DNA from: an uncultured Armatimonadia bacterium
GTDB taxonomy: Bacteria; Armatimonadota; Zipacnadia; CAVVLO01
Direction: 5' to 3'
NCBI GenBank assembly: GCA_963749155.1
Contig: CAVVLO010000002.1
Coordinates: 1,248,001-1,312,000 of the forward strand
DNA: 64,000 nucleotides
The translations under genes were made by a program, and so were the position numbers. Under the pieces are notes generated by a model that searched no databases, was not told the origin of the DNA, and saw only the letters and a list, made by a program, of their open reading frames with translations. The number at the start of each line of letters is the position of its first letter. Positions within the stretch are counted from its first letter, which is position 1. Positions 46,695-58,180 of this stretch are shown here, piece after piece.

Positions 46695-49554
46695 ATGCGA
46701 ACTCTTTTGCTGCTTGCAGGCTTGCTTGGACTGCTTTGCTCTACCCGTCCTTTGCCCTCGAAGTCAGTCTCGACCTGACCAGGGCCCTGTCAACCCCAGG
46801 CCTCAAGCTGCTTGACTGGCGCCGATGGCAACTGGCGCCCGGCAGAGGTTGATGGCACTCAGGTGGTTGAGTTCGGCTTCAAGCAGGAGGCCTTTTACCT
46901 GTATTTCAAACTCGACCAATCACTCTTCCCCGAAACGCCTCTGCCGCTCTATGTCAGCATCGAGTTTTTTGATAAGTCCTTTGCCACAGGGCTGAGTCTG
47001 CAATACGACCAGGCGGGGAAGACGGCTTACGAACCAGCTTCCGGTTATTCCTTTGGCATTGGCAGTGGCGAATGGCGCACCGCCTGGTTTGAACTGCCAG
47101 ATGCCGCTGTGTCCCATCGGCAGAACCTTCAGGCCGATTTCCGGCTTATGGCAGGCAGTTCGACTCTGCTGCGCCGGGTAACGGTCACCGACCAACCTGC
47201 CTCGGTAGTCTCGAAGGAGCAGATGCGCGCCGAATTAGCCGCCCTTGCGCCAAAGCTGCCAGACGACTTCCTCTATACAGTAGGGGCAAACGCTTCTGTC
47301 AGCGAGCTTAGGTCCGGCGCGCCCTTCTGGAAGCTGATGGGCTTCAAGGACATCGAGCTCTACGTCACCTGGCGACTGCTCAACGACGATCCCGCCGTCT
47401 GGGACTTGAGCCAGTTCGATGCGATGGTGGACGAGCTGCAAAGCTGGGACCTCAAGTGGATGCCCTTCCTCATCGCCGGGCCTGCTTACGCTACTCCCTT
47501 GTGGTATCGCAACTCACCCGACTCGGTCTTCACCAAATGCCTCGAACATGACGCAGGGCAGTCGCATCCAGTCCATCTTCAATCCCGATATGGTTGGTCG
47601 GGTGGATGAGTTCCTGCGCCAGTGTGGCCAGCACTGGAACGATGACCGGCTGAATTACATCCTGCTTGGAGTCTCGGGCACGTATGGAGAGTCCATCTAT
47701 GCCGCTGGACCAGAGGGCGGCTGGACGGCTTCAGAAGCTGGTGAGGATTATCACAACCACGGGGGTTTCTGGGCTGCCGAACCTGAAGCCATCGCGTCCT
47801 TCCAGGCCTGGCTCGAAGCAAAGTACGACGAGGTGGATAGCCTCAACCAGGCCTGGGGGAAGGGGTATACCGACTTCGGGCAGGTGAAGACCTTTATCCC
47901 AGGCGCCGATATGCCACGCCGGATGGCCTTCGATATGGCCTCCTGGTATACCCAGGCGATGACCGACTGGTCGGCGGTCTGGACAGACTCCGCCAGCAAG
48001 CATTTCCCAGGGACACCCGTCTATCTGTGCACGGGGGGGCACGGTATTGCGATGTTGGGTGCCGACTTTGCCGCGCAGGCCCAGATGCTTTCGCGCTTCC
48101 CGTCAACTGGCATCCGCATCACCAACGAGGCCAGCAACTACCTCAGCAACTTCGATATGACCCGGATGGTCGCCTCGGCCTGCCGTTTCTATGATATCGG
48201 CTTTGGGTTCGAGCCCGCTGGCTATTGCGATCACAACGGCATCGTTGGGCGACTCTTCAACGACATCAGCAGCGGCGCCAACCAGTTTCATGACTATCAC
48301 GGCAATCCCTTTAGTAACTCAGCATATGCCCAGAATCTGCATCGCTTCTCTGGCCTGCTCGGTAAGCGCGAGCCCCTAATCGATGTGGCGGTTTTCCAGC
48401 CCAAACCTGCTGTCTACCTCGATGAGAAGGAGATGTCTCGTTTCTACGGGGCCGCCGCGGCTCTCAGGCAGCTCGTGGACGTCGATTTCGTGGATAGCAC
48501 CCTCGTCGCAGATGGCGCGCTGGAGCAGTACAAACTGATTGTGCTGCCCAACACCCGCTTCGAGGAGGAGACAACCTTGCAGGCCCTTCTCGATTGGGTG
48601 GAAGCTGGCGGAGTGGCAGTTGTGGCTCGCAACGAAGCCCCCTGGCTCGAGACCATCGAAGGCTCCACCGCGCTCAGGGAAGAACTTCTCGGCGACCTGG
48701 CCAGCCTGCCCGATACCAGCCTTGTTGTGCCCGAGACACCCGACCTGGGCAACCGGCGCGCGATACTCGAAGTCGGCGCTTCAGGAGATGACCTGTGGCT
48801 GAGTGGTGACTGGTTCAGCGCCGAGTCAGGTTCCGAGGAGCTGCCCGCCAACCGCAGAAGCTGGCGCTGGATGAGCCACACGGCGCGAGTTATCCTTCCT
48901 GTCTGGTTTGAGGGCCCCGCGACCCTCTACGTGGGGGGCAACCTGTTCGGTGAGAATCCAATCTCCTCCGGACGGCTGCTGCTGGATGGCAAGGAGCTTG
49001 GCCCGTTGCTGGGCCCGCAGGACGGCGACTACCTGTTCGAGATCCCCGCCGCTGACCTGGCCGGCAAGAGGCGCGTGACTCTCGAGTTCGATATGAAGCC
49101 CCTGCGCGGCTTTGATATCGGCATCTCCGACTCGCGCGAGCTGGGCTTCCTGCTCAACTACATCGACTTTGGCCCGACCAGGGCCAACCGGATGGTGCCT
49201 GCCAAACTGGCAGAACTGGGCTTGAAAGCGACCGTGGCCGAAGCTGACCTGCTGCGTTGTTCGCGCTCGCTTGGAGAGGGCAAAATATTCCTGATGCCGA
49301 CGAGTCAGGCTTCCGCAACCGAATTTGCCTCCTTCACCTGGGAGGTAATCAGGCAGGCCAGCGCGCTGGGACTTGGCGAGGAGTTCATCCCCCTGCTGGA
49401 CGGCAAGTTTGATGGCGTCTACTGCACGCTCACAACCAACTCGCTGCTCTGGTTCAATGATACAGATGACCCGAAGCCAGGCTATGCTGTGGTCAAGGGG
49501 AAGCCTTACGAGGTGGAACTGGAGCCGCACTCCATCCAGGAGCAACCTCTGTAG
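46695..49554 (+). CDS. Secreted GH42/GH14-like glycoside hydrolase (indels near 46745, 46811 and 47552)
   Basis: RBS AGGAGG and signal peptide; motifs ELYVTW, GPAYATPLWY, GVSGTYGESIY, WLEAKYDEVDSLNQAWG, RITNE and GFEP. Confidence 0.7.
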
Positions 49555-49574: not shown

Positions 49575-49611
49575 AAAAAAGCCGGGCCCCCAGGGGTCCG
49601 GCTTCTTTTTT
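49575..49611. terminator. Bidirectional terminator
   Basis: AAAAAAGCCGGGCCCC...GGGGTCCGGCTTCTTTTTT. Confidence 0.8.
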
Positions 49612-50178: not shown

Positions 50179-51546
50179 ATGAGATTACCTGCTTCCAGAC
50201 TCTTCGGTACCGATGGCGTGCGGGGCATTGCCAACCGCGAACTCACCGCCGAACTGGCCCTCGGCCTTGGCCGCGTTTTCGGCCTTTGGCTTGCGCGCGA
50301 CCTCGAGAGGCCTGAGGTCCTGATAGCCCGAGATACCCGCCTCTCTGGCCCGATGCTGGCCAGCGCAGTCGAAGCAGGCCTTACGAGCGCCGGCGCCGAC
50401 GCCGTCGACTGCGGCATCCTGCCTACCCCTGCGCTCGGTCTGCTGACTGCTCGCCAAGGGCGCGCGGGCGCCGTTATGCTCTCAGCCTCGCACAACCCGC
50501 CCCAGTTCAACGGCATCAAGCTGCTTTCAGGTGAGGGCAAGAAGCTTCCCGACGAGGTCGAAGACGAACTCGAAGCCCTGCTGCGCGTTCATGGAGAACA
50601 ATTCTATGAGGGCGATCCTGACCAGGTAGGCCTGCTTTTCGAGCATCCCGAAGCCCGTGAGGAATACCTGGACTTCCTGTTTCAGCTTTCGCCCTTGCCG
50701 CTCAAGCTCGAGGGGCTCAAAGTGGCGCTCGATTGCGGCTTCGGCGCGGCCTTCGAGCTTGCCCATCTGGCTTTCGAGCGCGCCGGGGCCGAGGTCGTAC
50801 TGCTCAATGCCGAAGCAGACGGCGCGCGCATCAACGCAGGCTGTGGCGCGCTCCACCCCCAGCAGGTCGGCCAGGCCGTGCTCGATTCGGGGGCAGACTT
50901 CGGAGTGGCCTTCGATGGCGACGCCGACCGCGCGATGTTCGTTGACGAGGCTGGCAAGCCACGCGATGGCGACCATATCAAGTATCTCCTCGCCGCCGAT
51001 GCCCTCTCCCGGGGCGCCTTCTCGCCGCCAATCGTGGTCGGCACGGTGATGAGCAACCTGGGCCTCGAGCTTGCCCTGCGCGAACTGGGAGTAGAACTCG
51101 TTCGCACGCCTGTAGGCGACCGCTACGTGGCCGAGACGATGGCTGAGCGAGGCGCGGTGCTGGGCGGAGAGCAATCTGGCCACATCATCTTTGCCGAACA
51201 TGGGCTTGGAGATGGCATATATACGGCCTTGCGGGTGGCAGAAGTGGTCTCTCGCACGGGCAAACCGCTGTCCGAGCTTGCCGCGCCCGTCCAGAAAGTG
51301 CCCCAGGTGCTGATAAATGTCCCGCTCCCCCCTGGCTACGACTGGCAACGCTCCGAGCCGCTCCAGCAGGCGCTTGCCGAGTGGCAGGCCACCCTCGAGG
51401 GGAAGGGCCGCCTGCTGCTGCGTCCCTCTGGCACGGAGCCATTGCTGCGCGTGATGGTCGAAGCCCTCGACAAGGCGATGGCCTACGAAGCCGCCGGCGC
51501 CCTCGCCGAGACCATCACCTCCGAAGTGCCCGAGGTGGAAGGGTAA
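50179..51546 (+). CDS. glmM: Phosphoglucosamine mutase
   Basis: Motifs FGTDGVRG, SASHNP, DGDADR, GTVMSNLG, GGEQSGH and RPSGTEPLLRVMVE. Confidence 0.95.
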   Translation: MRLPASRLFGTDGVRGIANRELTAELALGLGRVFGLWLARDLERPEVLIARDTRLSGPMLASAVEAGLTSAGADAVDCGILPTPALGLLTARQGRAGAVMLSASHNPPQFNGIKLLSGEGKKLPDEVEDELEALLRVHGEQFYEGDPDQVGLLFEHPEAREEYLDFLFQLSPLPLKLEGLKVALDCGFGAAFELAHLAFERAGAEVVLLNAEADGARINAGCGALHPQQVGQAVLDSGADFGVAFDGDADRAMFVDEAGKPRDGDHIKYLLAADALSRGAFSPPIVVGTVMSNLGLELALRELGVELVRTPVGDRYVAETMAERGAVLGGEQSGHIIFAEHGLGDGIYTALRVAEVVSRTGKPLSELAAPVQKVPQVLINVPLPPGYDWQRSEPLQQALAEWQATLEGKGRLLLRPSGTEPLLRVMVEALDKAMAYEAAGALAETITSEVPEVEG

Positions 51547-51551
51547 GCAAC

Positions 51552-51579
51552 TTGCCAACGGCAGGCTAGTGGGTACAAT
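51552..51579 (+). promoter_or_regulatory. Putative promoter of cassette gene 1
   Basis: TTGCCA-N16-TACAAT. Confidence 0.6.
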
Positions 51580-51602
51580 GTATACAGTGGGCACTCGTCG
51601 AG

Positions 51603-51690
51603 GCTAAAAACACAACGCGCCCAATTCGCTCCGATATTCACAGCAGTGGCCACACCGCCCTTACGAATATGGAGGTGCCGTGCCGTGAAA
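51603..51690 (+). repeat. Cassette leader repeat, copy 1
   Basis: About 88 bp, GCTAAAA(A)CACAACGCGCCCAAT...GGAGGTGCCGTGCCGTGAAA, also at 53767-53853. Confidence 0.9.
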
Positions 51691-52663
51691 GGTCACCCTA
51701 CGCCTTGCCCTTATCTCCAGTTGCTCAGCAGTATGGCACTGATCTTGCTCCTCCTGGCAGGGACCTGCCTCGTCGCGCACGGCGACAGGACTGGCCTTGC
51801 CAGGAAACTGCTTGCCACGAAGGACGCTCTGCGGTGGGATGGGCCACAACAGGGCCTCTTCGGAGACATCTACAAGGTTGAGGAACCCGGTAGTGGGCGC
51901 AAGGCCCTGATCGAGCTTGAACCCGGTAGTGGCGAGCTGCGGGAGTTTACGTTACTAGGCAACCCGCCTACTCTGAAGGGACCCGCCCTAAGTGAGGAGG
52001 CGCTAGTTCCGGGAGGCAAGAACCCGCGCGGAGGAACTCCTGCCTGAGTCATACGGGATCGCTGGGCTGGTTGCCTCGACAAGTCAGCCGAAGCATCTGG
52101 GGCCGGTCACCTCTGTAACCCTGAGAGGGATGCAGGGAGACATACCTGTGCCCCCTCGGGTAGCCATACTGCTCTCCAATGATGGCAAGATTCTGACGAA
52201 GGTGCTGATCTCGGAATCTCCGATCTCTAGCCTGCGTGTAGGGGACGTGAAGTTCTCGGCTGAGAAGGCCGCCGAGTTAGCAATCGGTGAGGCGGTGCGC
52301 AGGGTGGCCGCTCTGACAACCTTCAGTGAGAATCGAGTGCAAGAACTTGCTGGGTACGCGCCCGAGGGACTTCCGAGCCTGTACTACTCTAACGATACGC
52401 TAGGCAAAGTCAACGGGCTGCCTACTCCGGGCGCTTTCTACAACGTGAAGGTGATCCGCACTAGACCTGCTTCTACCAGTGAGAGTGACAGGTTGCTTGA
52501 CCATCTTTATGTGACAGTCGATGCGAACACGGGCCAGTTCGGTGCTCCACCTGGGATCGCCGGATCCTCGACTCCGGCAGAGAGTAGCCGTTCAGGTGGC
52601 TCGCAACCCCTTGTCGCTTACATCCTCGCCGCCCATGGTCAGTGGTCACATCGCCGTCCATAA
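51685..52663 (+). CDS. Surface-protein cassette 1 (PepSY-like; frameshift near 52008; C-terminal anchor truncated)
   Basis: Signal peptide; shares PPR(V/I), YAP...YSN...PTP and VxVDxxTG with cassette 2. Ends AYILAA, then runs into the next leader. Confidence 0.7.
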
Positions 52664-52686
52664 TTTGGAGGTGCCGTGCCGTGAAA
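52641..52686 (+). repeat. Cassette leader repeat, copy 2 (3' half only)
   Basis: 46 bp identical to 53808-53853. Confidence 0.92.
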
Positions 52687-53616
52687 CTCTGTGTACTGTT
52701 TGCCCTCCTTGTAATGGGAACCGTTTTGCTCCCGACTGTTACGTTGGCCGAAGACCCTCGTGATGCCGCAGCTTCGGTATTGCTCGGTGGTGATCTTGCA
52801 GGCCTGGAGTGGGATTCGGATAGACTGGTGACCGAACATGGGACTGCAGTAGCTCGGTTGGAACTCGGGCACGGATATATTGTAAAGTCCTTCTCTCTCC
52901 TGCGAGATCTGCCGCCGTGTGGAAAAGTCCTCGACGACAAGGCTTTCGAGGCGAAAGGCAGGGCTCTGCTGAAGCAACTCGTCCCTGCGAGCTGGGATGT
53001 CGACGGCCTAGACTGTCAGCTAGGCGATCGACCCATCAGGGGAACAAGACTCCTCTATTTCCGCGGGGCAAGAGACGACGTGGTACTGCCCCCTCGCATC
53101 CTGATGCACCTGACGCCGGACGGGCGAGTCGTGCGCCACCTTGGGATACCCGAGCAACCGCTACCTGACTCGGCTCTTCTCCCCCCCCAAATCGACATCG
53201 AGCAGGCAAAGAAGCTAGCGCTAGCCACCGCAGTGCAGAAGCTCAGCAAGCAGACTGGCAAGTCGAAGTGGCAGGTGATGTGGCGAGCACGTTACGCCCC
53301 GAGTGCAGAAGCGCCGAAACTCCGATACTCGAACCAGCCAGAGGGCTACAACCTGAAATTCCCAACCCCTTGCCCCATCTGGTACGTGCGCATCGAGCGT
53401 ACCAAACCCGCCGCTAATGGTAGAGATGGCTTGCCAGATTATCAGGGTGTTATGGTAGACGGCAATACCGGGGCCACAATGACACCACCCGACGTTGTAG
53501 GAGGCTCACTAACGACCGGCAAGATGGCCGCGGGTGCGCCTTCTGCCGCCTATGCCCTCGCCGCCCTGGCAGCCCTGCTGCTCATCTTCCTCGTCGTGAA
53601 GCTGAGGAAGAGGTAG
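52681..53616 (+). CDS. Surface-protein cassette 2 (signal peptide, PepSY-like domain, C-terminal TM anchor)
   Basis: GTG after GGAGG; IDIEQAKKLA...VMVDGNTG; tail AYALAALAALLLIFLVVKLRKR. Confidence 0.8.
   Translation: MKLCVLFALLVMGTVLLPTVTLAEDPRDAAASVLLGGDLAGLEWDSDRLVTEHGTAVARLELGHGYIVKSFSLLRDLPPCGKVLDDKAFEAKGRALLKQLVPASWDVDGLDCQLGDRPIRGTRLLYFRGARDDVVLPPRILMHLTPDGRVVRHLGIPEQPLPDSALLPPQIDIEQAKKLALATAVQKLSKQTGKSKWQVMWRARYAPSAEAPKLRYSNQPEGYNLKFPTPCPIWYVRIERTKPAANGRDGLPDYQGVMVDGNTGATMTPPDVVGGSLTTGKMAAGAPSAAYALAALAALLLIFLVVKLRKR
53546..53615 (+). repeat. Conserved anchor-coding repeat, copy in cassette 2
   Basis: 68/70 nt identical to 54761-54830. Confidence 0.93.
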
Positions 53617-53619
53617 CCC

Positions 53620-53649
53620 CGTTGTTTCGGGACACTCCTGTCCCGAAAC
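53620..53649. repeat. REP-like hairpin
   Basis: GTTTCGGGACA-CTCC-TGTCCCGAAAC; inverted copy (25/30) at 54853-54882. Confidence 0.7.
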
Positions 53650-53716
53650 CGAAGCTTCAGGCTTCGAGGGTTGGTCTCGGGCAGGGACGCCGGATGAAAA
53701 TAACCTCCCAAAACGC

Positions 53717-53751
53717 TTGCCAAATTCGGGGGGGGGGGGGGGGGGTAACAT
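53717..53751 (+). promoter_or_regulatory. Promoter with G18 homopolymer in the -35/-10 spacer
   Basis: TTGCCA-AATTC-G18-TAACAT, in the same position relative to the leader as the cassette 1 promoter. Confidence 0.65.
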
Positions 53752-53766
53752 ATATATGGAGCGAAA

Positions 53767-53853
53767 GCTAAAACACAACGCGCCCAATCCGCTCCGATAT
53801 TCACAGTAGTGGTCACATCGCCGTCCATAATTTGGAGGTGCCGTGCCGTGAAA
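53767..53853 (+). repeat. Cassette leader repeat, copy 3
   Basis: Full-length homolog of 51603-51690. Confidence 0.9.
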
Positions 53854-54831
53854 CCCAGCTACCTCCCTACCGTCCTTCTGCTGTTAGCCTTAGTCACTAG
53901 CCTGCCCTGTGTTGGGGGGTGGAGCGCGCCGCCCGACAGTCTGCTTACAGAGCTGCTGGGCGTATCAAAGGTAACGGTAACAGAGGATGGAAGTAGCGAG
54001 CATTTAACGAGCTACACGGTCGCTGCCCAGCAGGGGAATGCCAAGGGCGAGTTCCGCGAGCGCCCCAACGGGTGGAGCTTTGAGCTTACCGAACTAGGTC
54101 CGGCGCGAGCCACTGTAGCTAATGACACCGAGGCGGTCTCACGCACAAAGCAACTAGCACAAGCCTTGATAGCTGACTGCTGCCCCGAGGAGGAGCTGGA
54201 TGTCGTTTGCTTTTCGGTGCCTGGCGGGAGAGAGCTGCAGGTGAGGCAGAAGGTTGGCCAAACAGTTAGCCTGGATATGCTGAATGCAATCCTGGACAGT
54301 GACGGCAGGTGGCTGTCCGTGAACCGCAGAGGTAAAGTAAATCCCTTCGATGCCAAGCAACGGGAGCTGGCGCTGCAGGTGCCGAAGGTAGACTTCGACC
54401 AGGCTGTCGCGATCGCCAGCACCCATGCCACGACGCTGGCGGCAGAGCGAGCTGGAATGTCGCCAGAGGTGCTCGCAAAGCAGATCTCTTGGAAGCTCGA
54501 CGATGACGACCCTGAGATCCAGACGGAGCTTCGAGTTCTGCCGGCAGGGATGCAGGGACGCGGGCCGTGGTATGGCTGGTCGGTGATACTGCAACGCACT
54601 GGCACTGCACCACAGCAAAATGCTGATACTCCCATGCCGTCTGCTATGCAGGTTGATGTCGATGCGATGACAGGCGAAGTAGCCGAGGTGTACCTGCCTG
54701 CCGGTAGTTCCGGCAGCAATCCGGCGAGTAGCCCCGACACAGAGGCTGACGAGTCCCTTTCCGCCTACGCCCTCGCCGCCCTGGCAGCCCTGCTGCTCGT
54801 CTTCCTCGTCGTGAAGCTGAGGAAGAGGTAA
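53848..54831 (+). CDS. Surface-protein cassette 3 (signal peptide, PepSY-like domain, C-terminal TM anchor)
   Basis: VDFDQAVAIA...VDVDAMTGEV; tail AYALAALAALLLVFLVVKLRKR. Confidence 0.8.
   Translation: MKPSYLPTVLLLLALVTSLPCVGGWSAPPDSLLTELLGVSKVTVTEDGSSEHLTSYTVAAQQGNAKGEFRERPNGWSFELTELGPARATVANDTEAVSRTKQLAQALIADCCPEEELDVVCFSVPGGRELQVRQKVGQTVSLDMLNAILDSDGRWLSVNRRGKVNPFDAKQRELALQVPKVDFDQAVAIASTHATTLAAERAGMSPEVLAKQISWKLDDDDPEIQTELRVLPAGMQGRGPWYGWSVILQRTGTAPQQNADTPMPSAMQVDVDAMTGEVAEVYLPAGSSGSNPASSPDTEADESLSAYALAALAALLLVFLVVKLRKR
54761..54830 (+). repeat. Conserved anchor-coding repeat, copy in cassette 3
   Basis: 68/70 nt identical to 53546-53615. Confidence 0.93.
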
Positions 54832-54852
54832 GGAGACAGGGCCTCGGCCCTG

Positions 54853-54882
54853 GCATCGGGACAGGAGTGGCCTGATACAACG
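54853..54882. repeat. REP-like hairpin, inverted copy
   Basis: GCATCGGGACAGGAGTGGCCTGATACAACG compared with the reverse complement of 53620-53649. Confidence 0.6.
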
Positions 54883-54900
54883 AAACCGAGCCACGACCCC

Positions 54901-55575
54901 CTATCGCCTTGGCGTCGTCCGCCGTTCCAGTTCCAGTCGGATGATGGAGTCGGCGGGAAGAATCTCCGAACCTGGCCCGGTCAGATAGACAAGAGTCCGA
55001 GGGCCGACGATGGTGCCTGGGTTCAGCACCACATTGCAGCCGAGTTGCGCCTCGTCACCGATGAGCGCGCCGAATTTGCGCAATCCCGTGTCGATGAGGC
55101 CCTCTTCGGTCCGCACCTTCACGCCTGTCTTCGTGACTTTGAAATTGGAGAGCTTGCTGCCAGCGCCGAGGTTGCTCTCGCGCCCGAGCACACTGTCGCC
55201 CACGTAGTTGAAATGCGGCGCGCCCGCCTTCGGCAGCAGCAGTGAGTTCTTGACCTCGGTCGCGTGGCCGACGATCGCCCCCTCGCCCACGTAGACATCG
55301 CCGCGGATATAGGCCCCGTGCCGCACCTGGGCGCCTTCCTTGATGATTGTCGGCCCCTGGATAAAGGCCATCGGCTCCACAACGGCGCCGCGCTCGATAA
55401 CCACCTCGCCCTCGATAACGGCGCTCGGATGCACTTCGCCCCGCACATCGCGCTTCACGCGGTCAGCAAGCAGCGCTCCCAGGTGAGCCAGCACCTCCCA
55501 GGGGTACTCGAAACTCGCTATCCACTCACCCAGCTCGAAGCCTTCGAGCCGCCAAAGGTCAGTTGCTTTCAGCAT
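54901..55575 (-). CDS. Hexapeptide-repeat acetyltransferase similar to the GlmU C-terminal domain (archaeal type)
   Basis: Motifs GHATEVKNS, APHFNYVGDSVLG, NLGAG and TGLRKFGALIGD; no nucleotidyltransferase domain. Confidence 0.82.
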   Translation of the reverse strand: MLKATDLWRLEGFELGEWIASFEYPWEVLAHLGALLADRVKRDVRGEVHPSAVIEGEVVIERGAVVEPMAFIQGPTIIKEGAQVRHGAYIRGDVYVGEGAIVGHATEVKNSLLLPKAGAPHFNYVGDSVLGRESNLGAGSKLSNFKVTKTGVKVRTEEGLIDTGLRKFGALIGDEAQLGCNVVLNPGTIVGPRTLVYLTGPGSEILPADSIIRLELERRTTPRR

Positions 55576-55630
55576 AAGTCGTCCCTCCCGCAGTTATAAT
55601 AACAGGCAGCGCGCCCAAGTGGAGGCCGAT

Positions 55631-58180
55631 ATGAGAAACCGGACCAACTCTTGTTTGCTTGTTCTTCTCTTCGTCAGTTTGTGGGTCTCAGGCCTGGGAT
55701 TCGGGCAGCCGAAACCCTCCGGTCTGGCGGACCTGGACACCATCCGGGCCGAAGTGGCTGCCTCGCCCACCACCGAGGCCAACGCGAAACAGCGGTTGGC
55801 TCTGCTGTATTCCTGGTATCGCCTGTTGCAGAACCAGGGCTACGATATCGCGAGCTTCGAGCCGCTCTCCCAACAGTTGCGAGGCGGTCCAGTGCCCGCG
55901 GTCGTGGACGAAGGCTATCGCGCGCTGGAGGCAGTGCAGGCCGGCGATCCACTTGTGGCGGTACAAGGTTTTACTTCCACCCCTGCTGAAGCTCTCCTCG
56001 ATTGGCCGAGTTACCATGGCGATCTCGGCCAGACAGGCTCCACGAAGGAAGCAGGTCCGACCGAAGGCGCGCTGGCCTGGCGTTTCTCCCTCGGGTGGGC
56101 CTGGTACGGCCGTCCAACGATCGAAGCAGGGAAGGTCTACATCGCTTCGCCAGGCCGCACCACCGCGCTCTACTGCCTGGATGAAGCCACGGGCGAGTTG
56201 AGATGGAAGGCCCGCCAGTGGGGTATCAGCGGTTGGGATCCCCCGCCAGCCGACTCTCCAGTGACAATACTGGCGGATGAAGTAATGGTGCGCGCGACCG
56301 CCTCGCAGGGCGAAGTCGCTCAACTCGTCTTCGTAGATAAAGCCACCGGCGCGGTTAAACGCCGCGTCTCACCCGGCCCGACAGAACCGCGCTGGGAGCC
56401 GGCTGCTGAACCGACCGGCGACGACTTCCTCACGTATCTGACCGACGACTCGACCACGGTCACGGTGAAGCTCGCCAAGAGCGGCCGCACCTGGTGGCGG
56501 TTCCGCGTCGGGCGAGCAATCGGCGAACCTCTCCTTGTGGGCGACCGCGTCTATGTCGGCACCACCGAGGGCAAGCTTTGGGCGTTGAACTTGACCACCC
56601 CGAGCCGTGTCGCCTGGGTCTACGAAGCCGGCGCGCCCCTGGCGGGAACCCCGGCGCTCAGCGGTGACCGCATGCTGATCGGCGCCAACGACGGTTCTGT
56701 CCACTGTGTGGAAGCCTCGACCGGCCAGCGCCTCTGGCGCTCTGAGGTGGCCAAGCCCGAGCACCGCGCTCAGCAGCTCTTCTCCAGCCCCACAATCACC
56801 GGCGATCGGGTGTACCTGGCTGCGGCGGACAGCCAGCTTTATTGTCTCGATCTCGCAACTGGCATCGTGCGGTGGCGCTTCCCCCTGGGTGATTGGGGTC
56901 GCGCGCGCCCTCTGGTGCTGGGTGATATCGTCTACACAGCAGCACTTGATGGCACAGTGACCGCGATCCGAGACGCTGGAGACTACCCCGAACTGCTGTG
57001 GACTCGCACCTTGGACAGGACAAAGCTCCTGGCTGATCTGACTGGAAGTGAGCGCGGCTTACTGATCGCAACCTCTGATCTTTATCTCTACTCGCTGTCG
57101 CCTGCGACAGGGGAAATCCAGTGGCGTCGCAGTCTGCTGGAATCCATCGAAGTGGACGGGGACCGTGTGCTGGCCGATGCTGCGCCGGAGATCTTCCAGT
57201 CCTCGCCCACTGTCGTTGACGGACTCGTCTGCATCGGTGGCCCAAGCGGCTTCGTCCACTGCGTGAGAGCTGCAACCGGAGAGGAAGTCTGGCGTTTTGA
57301 GACCGGCGGCAAGGTCTCAGCGACCCCAACAGTTGGCGCCGGACGTGTCTATGTGGGCCAATTCGGCGGAGATGAAGACTTCTACTGCCTCGACGCCGCG
57401 ACCGGAGAACCCCTCTGGACGCGACCGGTGGGCTGGGTCTGGACAGCCGCGGGCTTCGATGAGGGGCGACTCTACGTGGGCACGACCGAGGGCGACTTCC
57501 TCTGTCTCGAAGCCGCAACGGGACGTGAGTTATGGCGCTATACGACCGGCGGGGGCATCTACCCTTCGCCTGCCTTCGATGAGGAGCGCGTCTATACGGG
57601 CTCCTGGGATGGTCTTTATTATGCTTTTAACAAGCGCACAGGAAAGCTAGAGTGGACTTACTCCCGTCCGGGCTTGCCCTACCACATTGGGGGAAGGCCA
57701 GACTCCGCCTGTCCCGTTATCGCGGGCGACTTGCTGCTGGTGCAAACCCAAGGGGCGTTGCTGGTGGCTCTCGAGGCGGCAACAGGGCGAGAGCGCTGGC
57801 AGTGGGCGGTGCCTGAGTGGAGGCTCCAAAACGGCACTCCGGCGTATTCCGGGGGGGTTGTTTATGCCTCCTGCTTCACAGATGCCTATACGTGCCCTGG
57901 TGGCGCGCAGCTCTTCGCGCTGGAGGCCTCCACCGGAAAGCAGCTCTGGGCGTATCCTGACGGGGGAGGTATCACCGCTCCTTCGGTTGCGGGAGAGCGC
58001 CTCTACTTTGCCTCGACAGGAAGCGCCTGGTTTACCTGTCTCAATACAAAAGAGCCTGCCCAGCCAAGTCTGGTTTGGCGTTACAAGCTAGGCGGGCCAG
58101 TAATGGAATCCACGCCAGCGCTATATGGGAGACTGGTTTTCATCGCAGATTCGGCCGGTTGGCTGTGGGCTTTGCGCTGA
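55631..58180 (+). CDS. Secreted PQQ-binding-like (BamB-like) multi-beta-propeller protein
   Basis: Signal peptide; many LYCLDxATGxxxW blades. Confidence 0.85.
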   Translation: MRNRTNSCLLVLLFVSLWVSGLGFGQPKPSGLADLDTIRAEVAASPTTEANAKQRLALLYSWYRLLQNQGYDIASFEPLSQQLRGGPVPAVVDEGYRALEAVQAGDPLVAVQGFTSTPAEALLDWPSYHGDLGQTGSTKEAGPTEGALAWRFSLGWAWYGRPTIEAGKVYIASPGRTTALYCLDEATGELRWKARQWGISGWDPPPADSPVTILADEVMVRATASQGEVAQLVFVDKATGAVKRRVSPGPTEPRWEPAAEPTGDDFLTYLTDDSTTVTVKLAKSGRTWWRFRVGRAIGEPLLVGDRVYVGTTEGKLWALNLTTPSRVAWVYEAGAPLAGTPALSGDRMLIGANDGSVHCVEASTGQRLWRSEVAKPEHRAQQLFSSPTITGDRVYLAAADSQLYCLDLATGIVRWRFPLGDWGRARPLVLGDIVYTAALDGTVTAIRDAGDYPELLWTRTLDRTKLLADLTGSERGLLIATSDLYLYSLSPATGEIQWRRSLLESIEVDGDRVLADAAPEIFQSSPTVVDGLVCIGGPSGFVHCVRAATGEEVWRFETGGKVSATPTVGAGRVYVGQFGGDEDFYCLDAATGEPLWTRPVGWVWTAAGFDEGRLYVGTTEGDFLCLEAATGRELWRYTTGGGIYPSPAFDEERVYTGSWDGLYYAFNKRTGKLEWTYSRPGLPYHIGGRPDSACPVIAGDLLLVQTQGALLVALEAATGRERWQWAVPEWRLQNGTPAYSGGVVYASCFTDAYTCPGGAQLFALEASTGKQLWAYPDGGGITAPSVAGERLYFASTGSAWFTCLNTKEPAQPSLVWRYKLGGPVMESTPALYGRLVFIADSAGWLWALR

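What the first reader, a model, noticed from the sequence alone, without database searches (positions are those of the whole stretch)
51552..54882. Cassette array of variable surface proteins with constant leader and constant membrane anchor
Seen: three units, each built as promoter + ~88-bp leader ending GGAGGTGCCGTGCC-GTG-AAA + highly divergent signal peptide and PepSY-like core + anchor AYALAALAALLLxFLVVKLRKR + REP-like hairpin (some parts are missing at the unit 1/2 junction). The flanks are near-identical (46/46 nt leader between units 2 and 3; 68/70 nt anchor), while the cores are barely alignable and similarity stops right after the second codon. The array sits between glmM and a GlmU-like gene, and no recombinase is in the window. 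Inferred: a cassette-exchange system in which homologous flanks swap variable ectodomains. This is the best candidate for an undescribed system here.
Basis: partly seen in the sequence, partly recalled or inferred. Interest (0 to 1): 0.85.

Follow-up and report, generated by a model that had tools for sequence, protein, structure and literature searches.

The report
Swappable protease-keeper cassettes with phase switches
Three neighbouring genes share near-identical leader and membrane-anchor DNA around very different cores, and each core belongs to a family normally encoded right behind a secreted caspase-fold protease, so the array is likely a recombining, partly on/off-switchable stock of protective inhibitors against proteases of rival strains.

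Summary
The repeats are real, but the cores are homologous, not unrelated. They are predicted triple-PepSY (YpeB-like) domains of a family with about 20 genes or remnants in this genome.

Elsewhere the family sits directly behind large secreted clan CD (caspase/CHAT-fold) protease genes: 28 of 29 testable held-out loci in the phylum, and 3 pairs in this genome. The window's units have no such neighbour; units 1 and 2 nest among the protease partners.

Flank swapping is supported. Silent sites match 83/108 in anchors versus 124/499 in cores. A second genome has its own constant-anchor arrays and a three-part chimera. One contig from a related population skips unit 1 at the leader.

Six of the genome's 11 G/C runs of 10 or more lie in this system, including G18 in the unit-3 promoter spacer. 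In other genomes, 7 of 12 protease genes are out of frame at a 5' simple repeat.

Best reading: an orphan immunity-like array for a phase-variable secreted protease. Binding, inhibition and toxicity are untested. Earlier scan notes found the protease-PepSY pair on other DNA; my look-ups returned none on arrays or switches.

The parts
50179..51546 (+). glmM (left flank, context)
   Evidence: PGM_PMM I-IV
51552..51579 (+). sigma-70-like promoter of unit 1, TTGCCA-N16-TACAAT
   Evidence: 10/12 match; 4 sites found vs 0.8 in shuffles
51607..51690 (+). constant leader 1 with RBS and first two codons
   Evidence: 88% to leader 3 over 84 nt; no Rfam family at its gathering score, no unusual fold
51685..52634 (+). 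unit 1: signal peptide + triple-PepSY-like core, one frameshift near 52005-52010, anchor truncated
   Evidence: 49% to the protease partner at C3:600k; sister to it 100/96; core present in runs X1 and X9
52608..52686 (+). unit 1/2 junction: anchor stub joined to the last 46 nt of the leader (TGGTCA duplicated at 52636 and 52643)
   Evidence: (D1, D5); run X7 contig joins 51643 to 52640
52681..53616 (+). unit 2: intact 311-aa signal peptide + triple-PepSY core + linker + TM + KLRKR
   Evidence: model pLDDT 83.8; YpeB C-terminal domain 5boi Z 11.8, rmsd 6.0, 200 aligned
53546..53615 (+). constant anchor DNA, copy in unit 2
   Evidence: 68/70 to unit 3; 15/15 four-fold sites identical
53619..53670 (+). 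REP-like hairpin, left orientation, plus second hairpin
   Evidence: fold z -2.5; subfamily of 8 strong copies in the genome
53717..53751 (+). promoter of unit 3 with poly-G spacer: TTGCCA-AATTC-G18-TAACAT (spacer 23 as assembled); candidate phase-variation switch
   Evidence: same design at C3:514.4k with G15; about 5 letters shorter in run X10 (inferred from gap count)
53770..53853 (+). constant leader 3
53848..54831 (+). unit 3: intact 327-aa member, most divergent core, same anchor
   Evidence: family HMM built with it, E 2e-42; PepSY E 0.25, below cut-off; long branch
54848..54883 (-). REP-like hairpin, right orientation (inverted partner of 53619-53653)
   Evidence: (I1)
54901..55575 (-). 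hexapeptide-repeat GlmU-like gene (right flank, context)

Best explanation
The array holds three genes with shared leader and anchor DNA whose cores are homologous to the partner encoded behind a secreted caspase-fold protease, and it likely works as a recombining stock of membrane-tethered inhibitors (orphan immunity proteins) against versions of that protease made by other strains. SHOWN: (a) a conserved two-gene module, a large exported protein with PKD/FlgD-Ig domains and a C-terminal His/Cys clan CD domain, followed by a triple-PepSY partner; (b) partner genes without a protease in tandem arrays in two genomes; (c) anchors with a much younger common ancestor than their cores; (d) simple repeats at the 5' end of protease genes and in promoters of orphan partners. 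INFERRED: the partner acts like a detached propeptide that binds and blocks its cognate protease in the periplasm. Foreign cores are captured and fitted into the resident promoter-leader and anchor frame by ordinary homologous or homology-facilitated recombination, with no dedicated recombinase. Slippage of the repeats switches the protease on or off by frameshift and tunes single orphans by promoter spacing.
For: Partner directly downstream of 28 of 29 testable held-out protease loci (31 examined, 2 at contig ends; 15 genera, kin not independent). Invariant His and Cys; fold match to CHAT, separase and gingipain, Z 12.9-10.0. Unit 2 fold matches YpeB (Z 11.8) and M36/M4 propeptides (Z 7.3, 6.2). 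Two of 151 family proteins are fused to the protease, one in N-terminal propeptide position. Units 1 and 2 lie in a 100/98 clade with two protease-paired partners. Four-fold sites: anchor 83/108 vs core 124/499 over all 10 pairs, where genome codon use predicts 0.29-0.36; in G004, 191/200 vs 353/888 over 14 of 15 pairs. G004 chimera: 5' 327 nt 94% to one gene, 730-nt core 87% to another, anchor 89-98% to others. G004 has 12 family hits in 3 arrays and no protease match with this query. Core codon usage is atypical (CAI percentile 0-16 in 7 of 8 KLRKR-group cores) against 79-82 for the flanking genes. Six of 11 genome-wide G/C runs of 10 or more lie in the system. 7 of 12 protease genes from 11 other genomes are out of frame at a G6-G9 or (CT)4-5 run in the first 25 codons.
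Against: No inhibition, toxicity, delivery route or expression is shown. PepSY-fold proteins also regulate non-proteases (YpeB-SleB, YycI; PMC4282423 passages). Only 9 of 20 family loci from other genomes showed a protease upstream (several end at contig edges). One protease locus with room had no partner (L103). Protease-partner co-divergence is weak (rho 0.17, 47/2000 permutations, confounded by kinship). The unit-1 skip rests on one contig (depth 6.4, 50 nt on the short side, laid at 80% likeness) and was not seen, where no contig covers the place. Unit 3 sits on a long branch with weak placement. G000 has homopolymer errors (three runs show an extra T at 49605), so its run lengths and frameshifts are unreliable. 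Several family genes are broken, which also fits decay.
Confidence: 0.55

Rival explanations
1. Leftover partners. The protein is a folding chaperone or tether for its own protease. Orphans accumulate when protease genes decay, and local gene conversion homogenises their short flanks without any protective role against foreign enzymes.
For: Decayed pair at C3:517-519k; unit 1, C3:514k and C1:295k are broken; propeptide-like fold and fusions.
Against: Orphans have their own promoters and switches. Of 16 changed codons in the X3 allele of unit 2, 10 are silent. The genome has about 20 partner genes or remnants for 3 protease loci. G004 keeps 3 arrays with no protease found.
Confidence: 0.2
2. 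One reading: antigenic variation of exposed surface proteins (phage or predator evasion) by cassette exchange, with no protease link.
For: Constant flanks, mosaic genes and poly-G switches are typical of contingency loci.
Against: Tight linkage of the family to the protease. Inner-membrane-type topology. No silent promoterless donor set: units 1 and 3 and C3:514k have promoter and RBS.
Confidence: 0.1
3. Envelope regulation rather than conflict. The protease processes the cell's own envelope or surface proteins, and the PepSY proteins are YycH/YycI- or YpeB-like regulators whose variants tune substrates or signalling.
For: Fold similarity to YycI, YycH and YpeB; the nearest solved protease relative is the CHAT domain of the anti-sigma factor DdvA.
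Against: Patchy distribution (protease match in 44 of 251 genomes), frequent out-of-frame state, extreme divergence and atypical codon usage do not suit a housekeeping role.
Confidence: 0.12
4. Assembly artefact: repeats and junctions were produced by long-read misassembly.
For: Homopolymer error at 49605; indel-like letters at the unit 1/2 junction, which no contig bridges.
Against: All three cores and the anchor-hairpin-promoter junction occur in independent public runs; the same architecture occurs in G004.
Confidence: 0.03

Closest known systems
Homogeneous polyimmunity loci of polymorphic toxin systems (Zhang et al. 2012, PMC3482391; section 39 read whole, other passages by search)
   Same: Tandem, co-oriented, distantly related paralogues without a toxin gene between them; content differs between strains; the paper lists C-terminal caspase-like domains as toxins (Tox-Caspase, exported also by T2SS).
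   Different: The immunity proteins it lists for Tox-Caspase are Imm36 and Imm57; 'PepSY' has 0 occurrences in its search listing. Here the units are membrane-anchored, carry their own promoters, share homogenised leader and anchor DNA, have poly-G switches, and no recombinase is adjacent.
Orphan T6SS immunity arrays of Vibrio cholerae (PMC5361080; abstract and passages)
   Same: Arrays built by homologous and homology-facilitated illegitimate recombination; the unit 1 joint (homologous leader at the 5' side, short microhomology at the 3' side) fits that model.
   Different: There the orphans trail the effector gene. Here they lie on other contigs or kilobases away, and each is refitted with a constant leader and anchor.
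PepSY proteins: M4/M36 propeptides, YpeB (5boi), YycH/YycI, DUF4901 YcdB/YcdC (PMC4282423 passages)
   Same: Predicted fold, and the inhibitor-of-a-partner theme.
   Different: The partner is a clan CD cysteine protease, not a zinc metalloprotease or lytic enzyme; the window's proteins fall below Pfam cut-offs.
Neisseria porA and lgtG phase variation (PMC3639595; passages)
   Same: Poly-G between -35 and -10, and poly-G inside a reading frame.
   Different: Found here in an environmental lineage and on both halves of an enzyme-partner module; switching itself is not observed.
Caspase-fold protease + PepSY partner noted earlier in this scan in Bathyarchaeia, Archaeoglobi and Fibrobacteria (unchecked AI notes)
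   Same: Same two-gene module, with fused forms.
   Different: The lines shown mention no orphan arrays, flank swapping or simple-repeat switches.

Membership tests
Polyimmunity locus (Zhang 2012) | Tandem paralogues, same orientation, not interrupted by toxin genes | tested here: met
   three co-oriented family genes; no protease-domain hit on contig C2
Polyimmunity locus (Zhang 2012) | Homologues found as the gene next to a toxin-like C-terminal domain | tested here: met
   28 of 29 testable held-out loci; toxin status of the protease is itself inferred
Polyimmunity locus (Zhang 2012) | Content differs between strains | tested here: inconclusive
   one contig skips unit 1; one contig joins the leader end to a start not found in G000; both single and low depth
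Polyimmunity locus (Zhang 2012) | Products neutralise a toxin | not testable with these tools
PepSY domain family (PF03413) / DUF4901 | Pfam score above the curated cut-off | tested here: inconclusive
   window proteins: best E 0.25; 10 of 29 aligned relatives match PepSY at E<=0.01, best 1.7e-13, and 4 match DUF4901
PepSY domain family (PF03413) / DUF4901 | PepSY-type fold | tested here: met
   5boi Foldseek E 9e-7; Z 11.8, rmsd 6.0, 200 aligned
Clan CD cysteine peptidase (partner gene, outside the window) | His-Gly...Gly-Cys dyad on the caspase-hemoglobinase fold | tested here: met
   H and C invariant in 11 of 11, 90% or more of 24; 8rot Z 12.9, rmsd 3.1, 157 aligned (model pLDDT 61.9)
Clan CD cysteine peptidase (partner gene, outside the window) | Proteolytic activity | not testable with these tools
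   needs an assay
Integron / shufflon cassette array | Adjacent tyrosine recombinase acting on att/sfx sites | tested here: not met
   2 PF00589 matches in the genome, the nearest about 190 kb from the array
Gene-conversion antigenic variation (pilE/pilS, vlsE type; recalled) | One expressed locus plus silent promoterless donor cassettes | tested here: not met
   units 1 and 3 and C3:514k each carry promoter-like sites, leader and RBS
Simple-repeat phase-variable locus | Long homopolymer in a promoter spacer or 5' coding region | tested here: met
Simple-repeat phase-variable locus | Tract length varies within or between populations and changes expression | tested here: inconclusive
   X10 contig is about 5 letters shorter inside the skipped repeat (inferred: 9 gap letters, 4 listed as insertions); expression untested

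The most novel reading that the evidence does not exclude
Armatimonadota wage a protease war using an antibody-like defence. Captured, hypervariable triple-PepSY inhibitor domains are plugged into a constant promoter-leader and membrane-anchor frame. This gives each cell a switchable repertoire of tethered inhibitors against rival strains' phase-variable secreted caspase-fold proteases, without any dedicated recombinase.
Probability: 0.3. Interest if true: 0.9.

Novelty: new variant of a known kind. Interest (0 to 1): 0.74.

Why it matters
It gives a testable role to a large unnamed family (6,140 representatives at E<=0.001, a count that includes distant DUF4901-type proteins). It points to an undescribed effector-keeper pair built on a secreted clan CD protease. 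If the inhibitor reading holds, PepSY modules, known against metalloproteases, would also be a natural and diversifying source of caspase-fold protease inhibitors. The orphan arrays would supply ready panels for studying specificity. It would also extend simple-repeat phase variation and orphan-immunity arrays, mostly studied in host-associated bacteria, to a little-studied environmental phylum.

Tried and rejected
- Word-based protein search with unit 2 found only units 2 and 3.
- The ESM Atlas gave no hit above 0.87 (lead only).
- Metagenome scans found nothing: anchor pattern 0; partner protein, 88 candidates, none confirmed.
- No genome closer than class is held, so glmM-GlmU synteny could not be compared. 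One search fetched 8 distant GlmU-like loci, which I did not analyse.
- DUF6345 as the protease's family: 0 matches in G000.
- Leader as riboswitch or structured RNA: no Rfam match beyond one chance-level hit (E 0.92) and folding z 0.14 and -1.07; rejected.
- Dedicated recombinase: none near.
- REP transposase as driver: two weak Y1 hits, one flanked by related but different hairpins; unproven.
- The joint 53670-54849 in run X10 first looked like an empty site for unit 3. Its 44-nt spacer matches the length in the gene-free REP doublet at C1:294k, so it probably comes from another locus; not counted.
- Uncovered stretches in single runs (for example X2 has no depth over units 1-2, X1 none over most of units 2-3) are suggestive but prove nothing.
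- No RNA holder listed.
- Literature: nine searches listed no paper describing a PepSY partner of a clan CD protease or such arrays in Armatimonadota. The library lacks most subscription journals and I read no supplements, so the Additional File of PMC3482391 may bear on this.
- Three scan look-ups on arrays, sequence and phase variation returned nothing.
Full report
OBSERVATION. The window is G000:C2:1248001-1312000 of a 4.17-Mb, 7-contig genome. No relative closer than class is held. The label Armatimonadota comes from an earlier scan note and an Atlas cluster; I did not test it. The leader and anchor repeats are as described: 46/46 nt between units 2 and 3, 38/46 between units 1 and 2, anchor 68/70. 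Units 2 (311 aa) and 3 (327 aa) are intact. Unit 1 has a frameshift near 52005-52010, and its anchor breaks off after AYILAA, running into the last 46 nt of the leader. The cores are homologous (unit 1 vs 2: 34% over 145 aa, E 2.5e-18).

THE FAMILY. Seven further anchor copies and one further leader copy lie at C2:1402-1405k (three tandem genes), C3:513-517k, C3:600k and C1:295k. A broader profile finds about 20 genes or remnants in the genome, including a second subfamily with other tails. The unit 2 model (pLDDT 83.8) matches the YpeB C-terminal domain (Foldseek E 9e-7; Z 11.8, rmsd 6.0, 200 aligned), then M36 and M4 propeptides and YycH/YycI at Z 5.9-7.3. Ten of 29 aligned relatives match PepSY and 4 match DUF4901.

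THE PARTNER. Two intact family genes in G000 start within a few bases of the end of a roughly 600-aa exported protein, and a third follows a decayed copy. The C-terminal domain has invariant His and Cys and matches a CHAT protein by profile (E 7e-5). By fold it matches CHAT, separase and gingipain (Z 12.9, 11.7, 10.0; model pLDDT 61.9). N-terminal parts carry PKD or FlgD-Ig domains in 7 of 8 homologues scanned, several below cut-off. The domain was found in 44 of 251 genomes of the phylum sample. In loci not used to build either profile, a family gene follows directly in 18 of 20 (two at contig ends; weakest E 3.6e-3) and in 10 of 11 further loci. These come from 15 genera and are not independent. 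In the other direction, only 9 of 20 family loci from other genomes had such a gene upstream, read by eye; the rest were orphans or cut by contig ends. Two of 151 family proteins are fused to the protease domain, one with the PepSY modules in front like a propeptide. In a tree of 46 cores, unit 1 is sister to the protease-paired C3:600k gene (100/96) and unit 2 is in the same clade (100/98); unit 3 is a long branch with weak placement. The window's units are thus partners without their enzyme.

RECOMBINATION. If selection alone kept the anchor constant, its silent sites should be as saturated as those of the cores. Over all 10 pairs of 5 in-frame genes, four-fold sites match 83/108 in the anchor and 124/499 in the cores; without the divergent C2:1405k gene, 63/75 and 80/307. 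Genome codon use predicts 0.29-0.36. The anchor is GC3-rich, which inflates the match somewhat, and pairs are not independent. Downstream flanks come in types (hairpin, terminator) that do not follow core similarity. The C3:514k gene starts like unit 2 and ends like C2:1403k. Genome G004, of another family, has 12 family hits in three arrays with a different constant anchor and no protease match with this query. There the contrast is 191/200 vs 353/888 in 14 of 15 pairs, one close pair dropped. One G004 gene is a three-part chimera. Core codon usage is atypical in 7 of 8 KLRKR-group cores, as expected for foreign DNA. No tyrosine or serine recombinase lies near the array.

POPULATIONS. Twenty public runs hold part of the stretch; I laid 7 different runs. 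In X7, one contig joins 51643 to 52640: the unit-1 promoter and leader run straight into unit 2's leader end and gene, without unit 1. The cross-over lies at the very start of the 46-nt repeat, which fits insertion of unit 1 with its own leader end better than deletion (inference). It is one contig and was not replicated. In X7, unit 2 is about 98% identical while glmM is 95% and the next large gene about 91%. In X3, unit 2 is 92% while unit 3 is 99%, and 17 of the 19 listed differences fall in 73 nt (16 rows of that table were not shown). In X10 the leader end is followed by a start not found in G000. Unit 1 sequence is present in X1 and X9, so it is real; its frameshift and junction are not bridged by any contig.

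PHASE-VARIATION LAYER. The genome has only 11 G/C runs of 10 or more. Six lie in this system: G18 in the unit-3 promoter spacer, G15 in the same position at C3:514k, G12 and G10 upstream of two second-subfamily orphans, and G17 and G13 at the end of the signal-peptide codons of both intact protease genes, where signal and body are out of frame as assembled. A crude post-hoc binomial gives p about 5e-13. G000's homopolymer lengths are unreliable, so the on/off state is unknown. In other, fragmented assemblies (probably short-read), 12 of 21 protease ORFs inspected had a recognisable start. Five are out of frame at G6-G9, two at (CT)4-5, and five are in frame. Five of the six G/C runs of 8 or more in those 118.5 kb sit at the start of a protease ORF. 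An X10 contig across the unit 2/3 junction is about 5 letters shorter inside the repeat (inferred from gap counts), which would bring the spacer from 23 to 18. This resembles porA and lgtG of Neisseria (PMC3639595 passages).

MECHANISM. Shown: the module, orphan arrays, young anchors on old cores, chimeras and repeat tracts. Inferred: the partner is a detached propeptide-like inhibitor; the protease is a costly, switchable weapon or envelope-attacking enzyme; orphans protect against non-self versions; cores enter by homologous or homology-facilitated recombination as proposed for Vibrio immunity arrays (PMC5361080 passages). I put 0.85 on flank-mediated shuffling and 0.55 on the whole immunity reading. 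Rivals: leftover chaperones with gene conversion (0.2), envelope regulation (0.12), protease-independent antigenic variation (0.1), artefact (0.03).

KNOWN AND NEW. It works like a homogeneous polyimmunity locus (PMC3482391 section 39), but membership cannot be settled without an inhibition assay. It is not an integron or shufflon, and not a silent-donor system. Nine paper searches listed no description of the pair or the arrays. Earlier notes of this scan report the protease-PepSY pair in archaea and Fibrobacteria; I had reached the pair before reading them, and they are unchecked. My look-ups for arrays and switches returned nothing. Verdict: new variant of a known kind, interest 0.74.

Noticed in passing
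window 52636-52664: The unit 1/2 junction duplicates TGGTCA and so creates a 9/12 promoter-like site (TGGTCA-N17-CATAAT) just before unit 2's RBS; probably too close to the start codon to be useful.
   Followed up: partly
window 53619-54883; G000:C1:294144-294274: The two inverted hairpins bracketing unit 3 also occur as a gene-free doublet with a 44-nt spacer. 7 of the 8 strong copies of this REP subfamily (7 were the training set) lie within about 1 kb of a family gene or remnant.
   Followed up: partly
G000:C2:250798, C2:304813, C3:309791: Three other long G runs (18, 18, 13) each begin the same roughly 55-nt downstream repeat; one lies upstream of a PEP-CTERM-type gene at C3:310282. A separate repeated, possibly phase-variable element.
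   Followed up: no
G000:C1:362k, C2:833-839k, C3:464.5k, C3:611k: The second subfamily of partners, and one protease gene, share their own promoter-leader motif ending in ACTAG(T/A)GG-like boxes, a parallel constant frame.
   Followed up: partly
G000:C3:598074-598335 and C3:518709-518956: Two protease loci share 253 nt (88%) of promoter and signal peptide up to the G run and diverge right after it, so the protease body may also be a swapped cassette.
   Followed up: partly
G000:C1:421114-421725: A RAYT-like Y1 transposase gene flanked by arrays of related REP hairpins.
   Followed up: no
window 46812-49554: Two overlapping ORFs of a glycoside-hydrolase-like gene look like one gene split by a frameshift, probably an assembly error.
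   Followed up: no
window 55619-58180: 853-aa exported PQQ/BamB-type beta-propeller repeat protein, divergent from the GlmU-like gene.
   Followed up: no
L019, L020, L023, L027, L034, L070: Protease partners in other genomes often end in a copper-amine-oxidase-N-like domain (label recalled from the motif) instead of a membrane anchor, so the tail is a modular, exchangeable part across the phylum.
   Followed up: no
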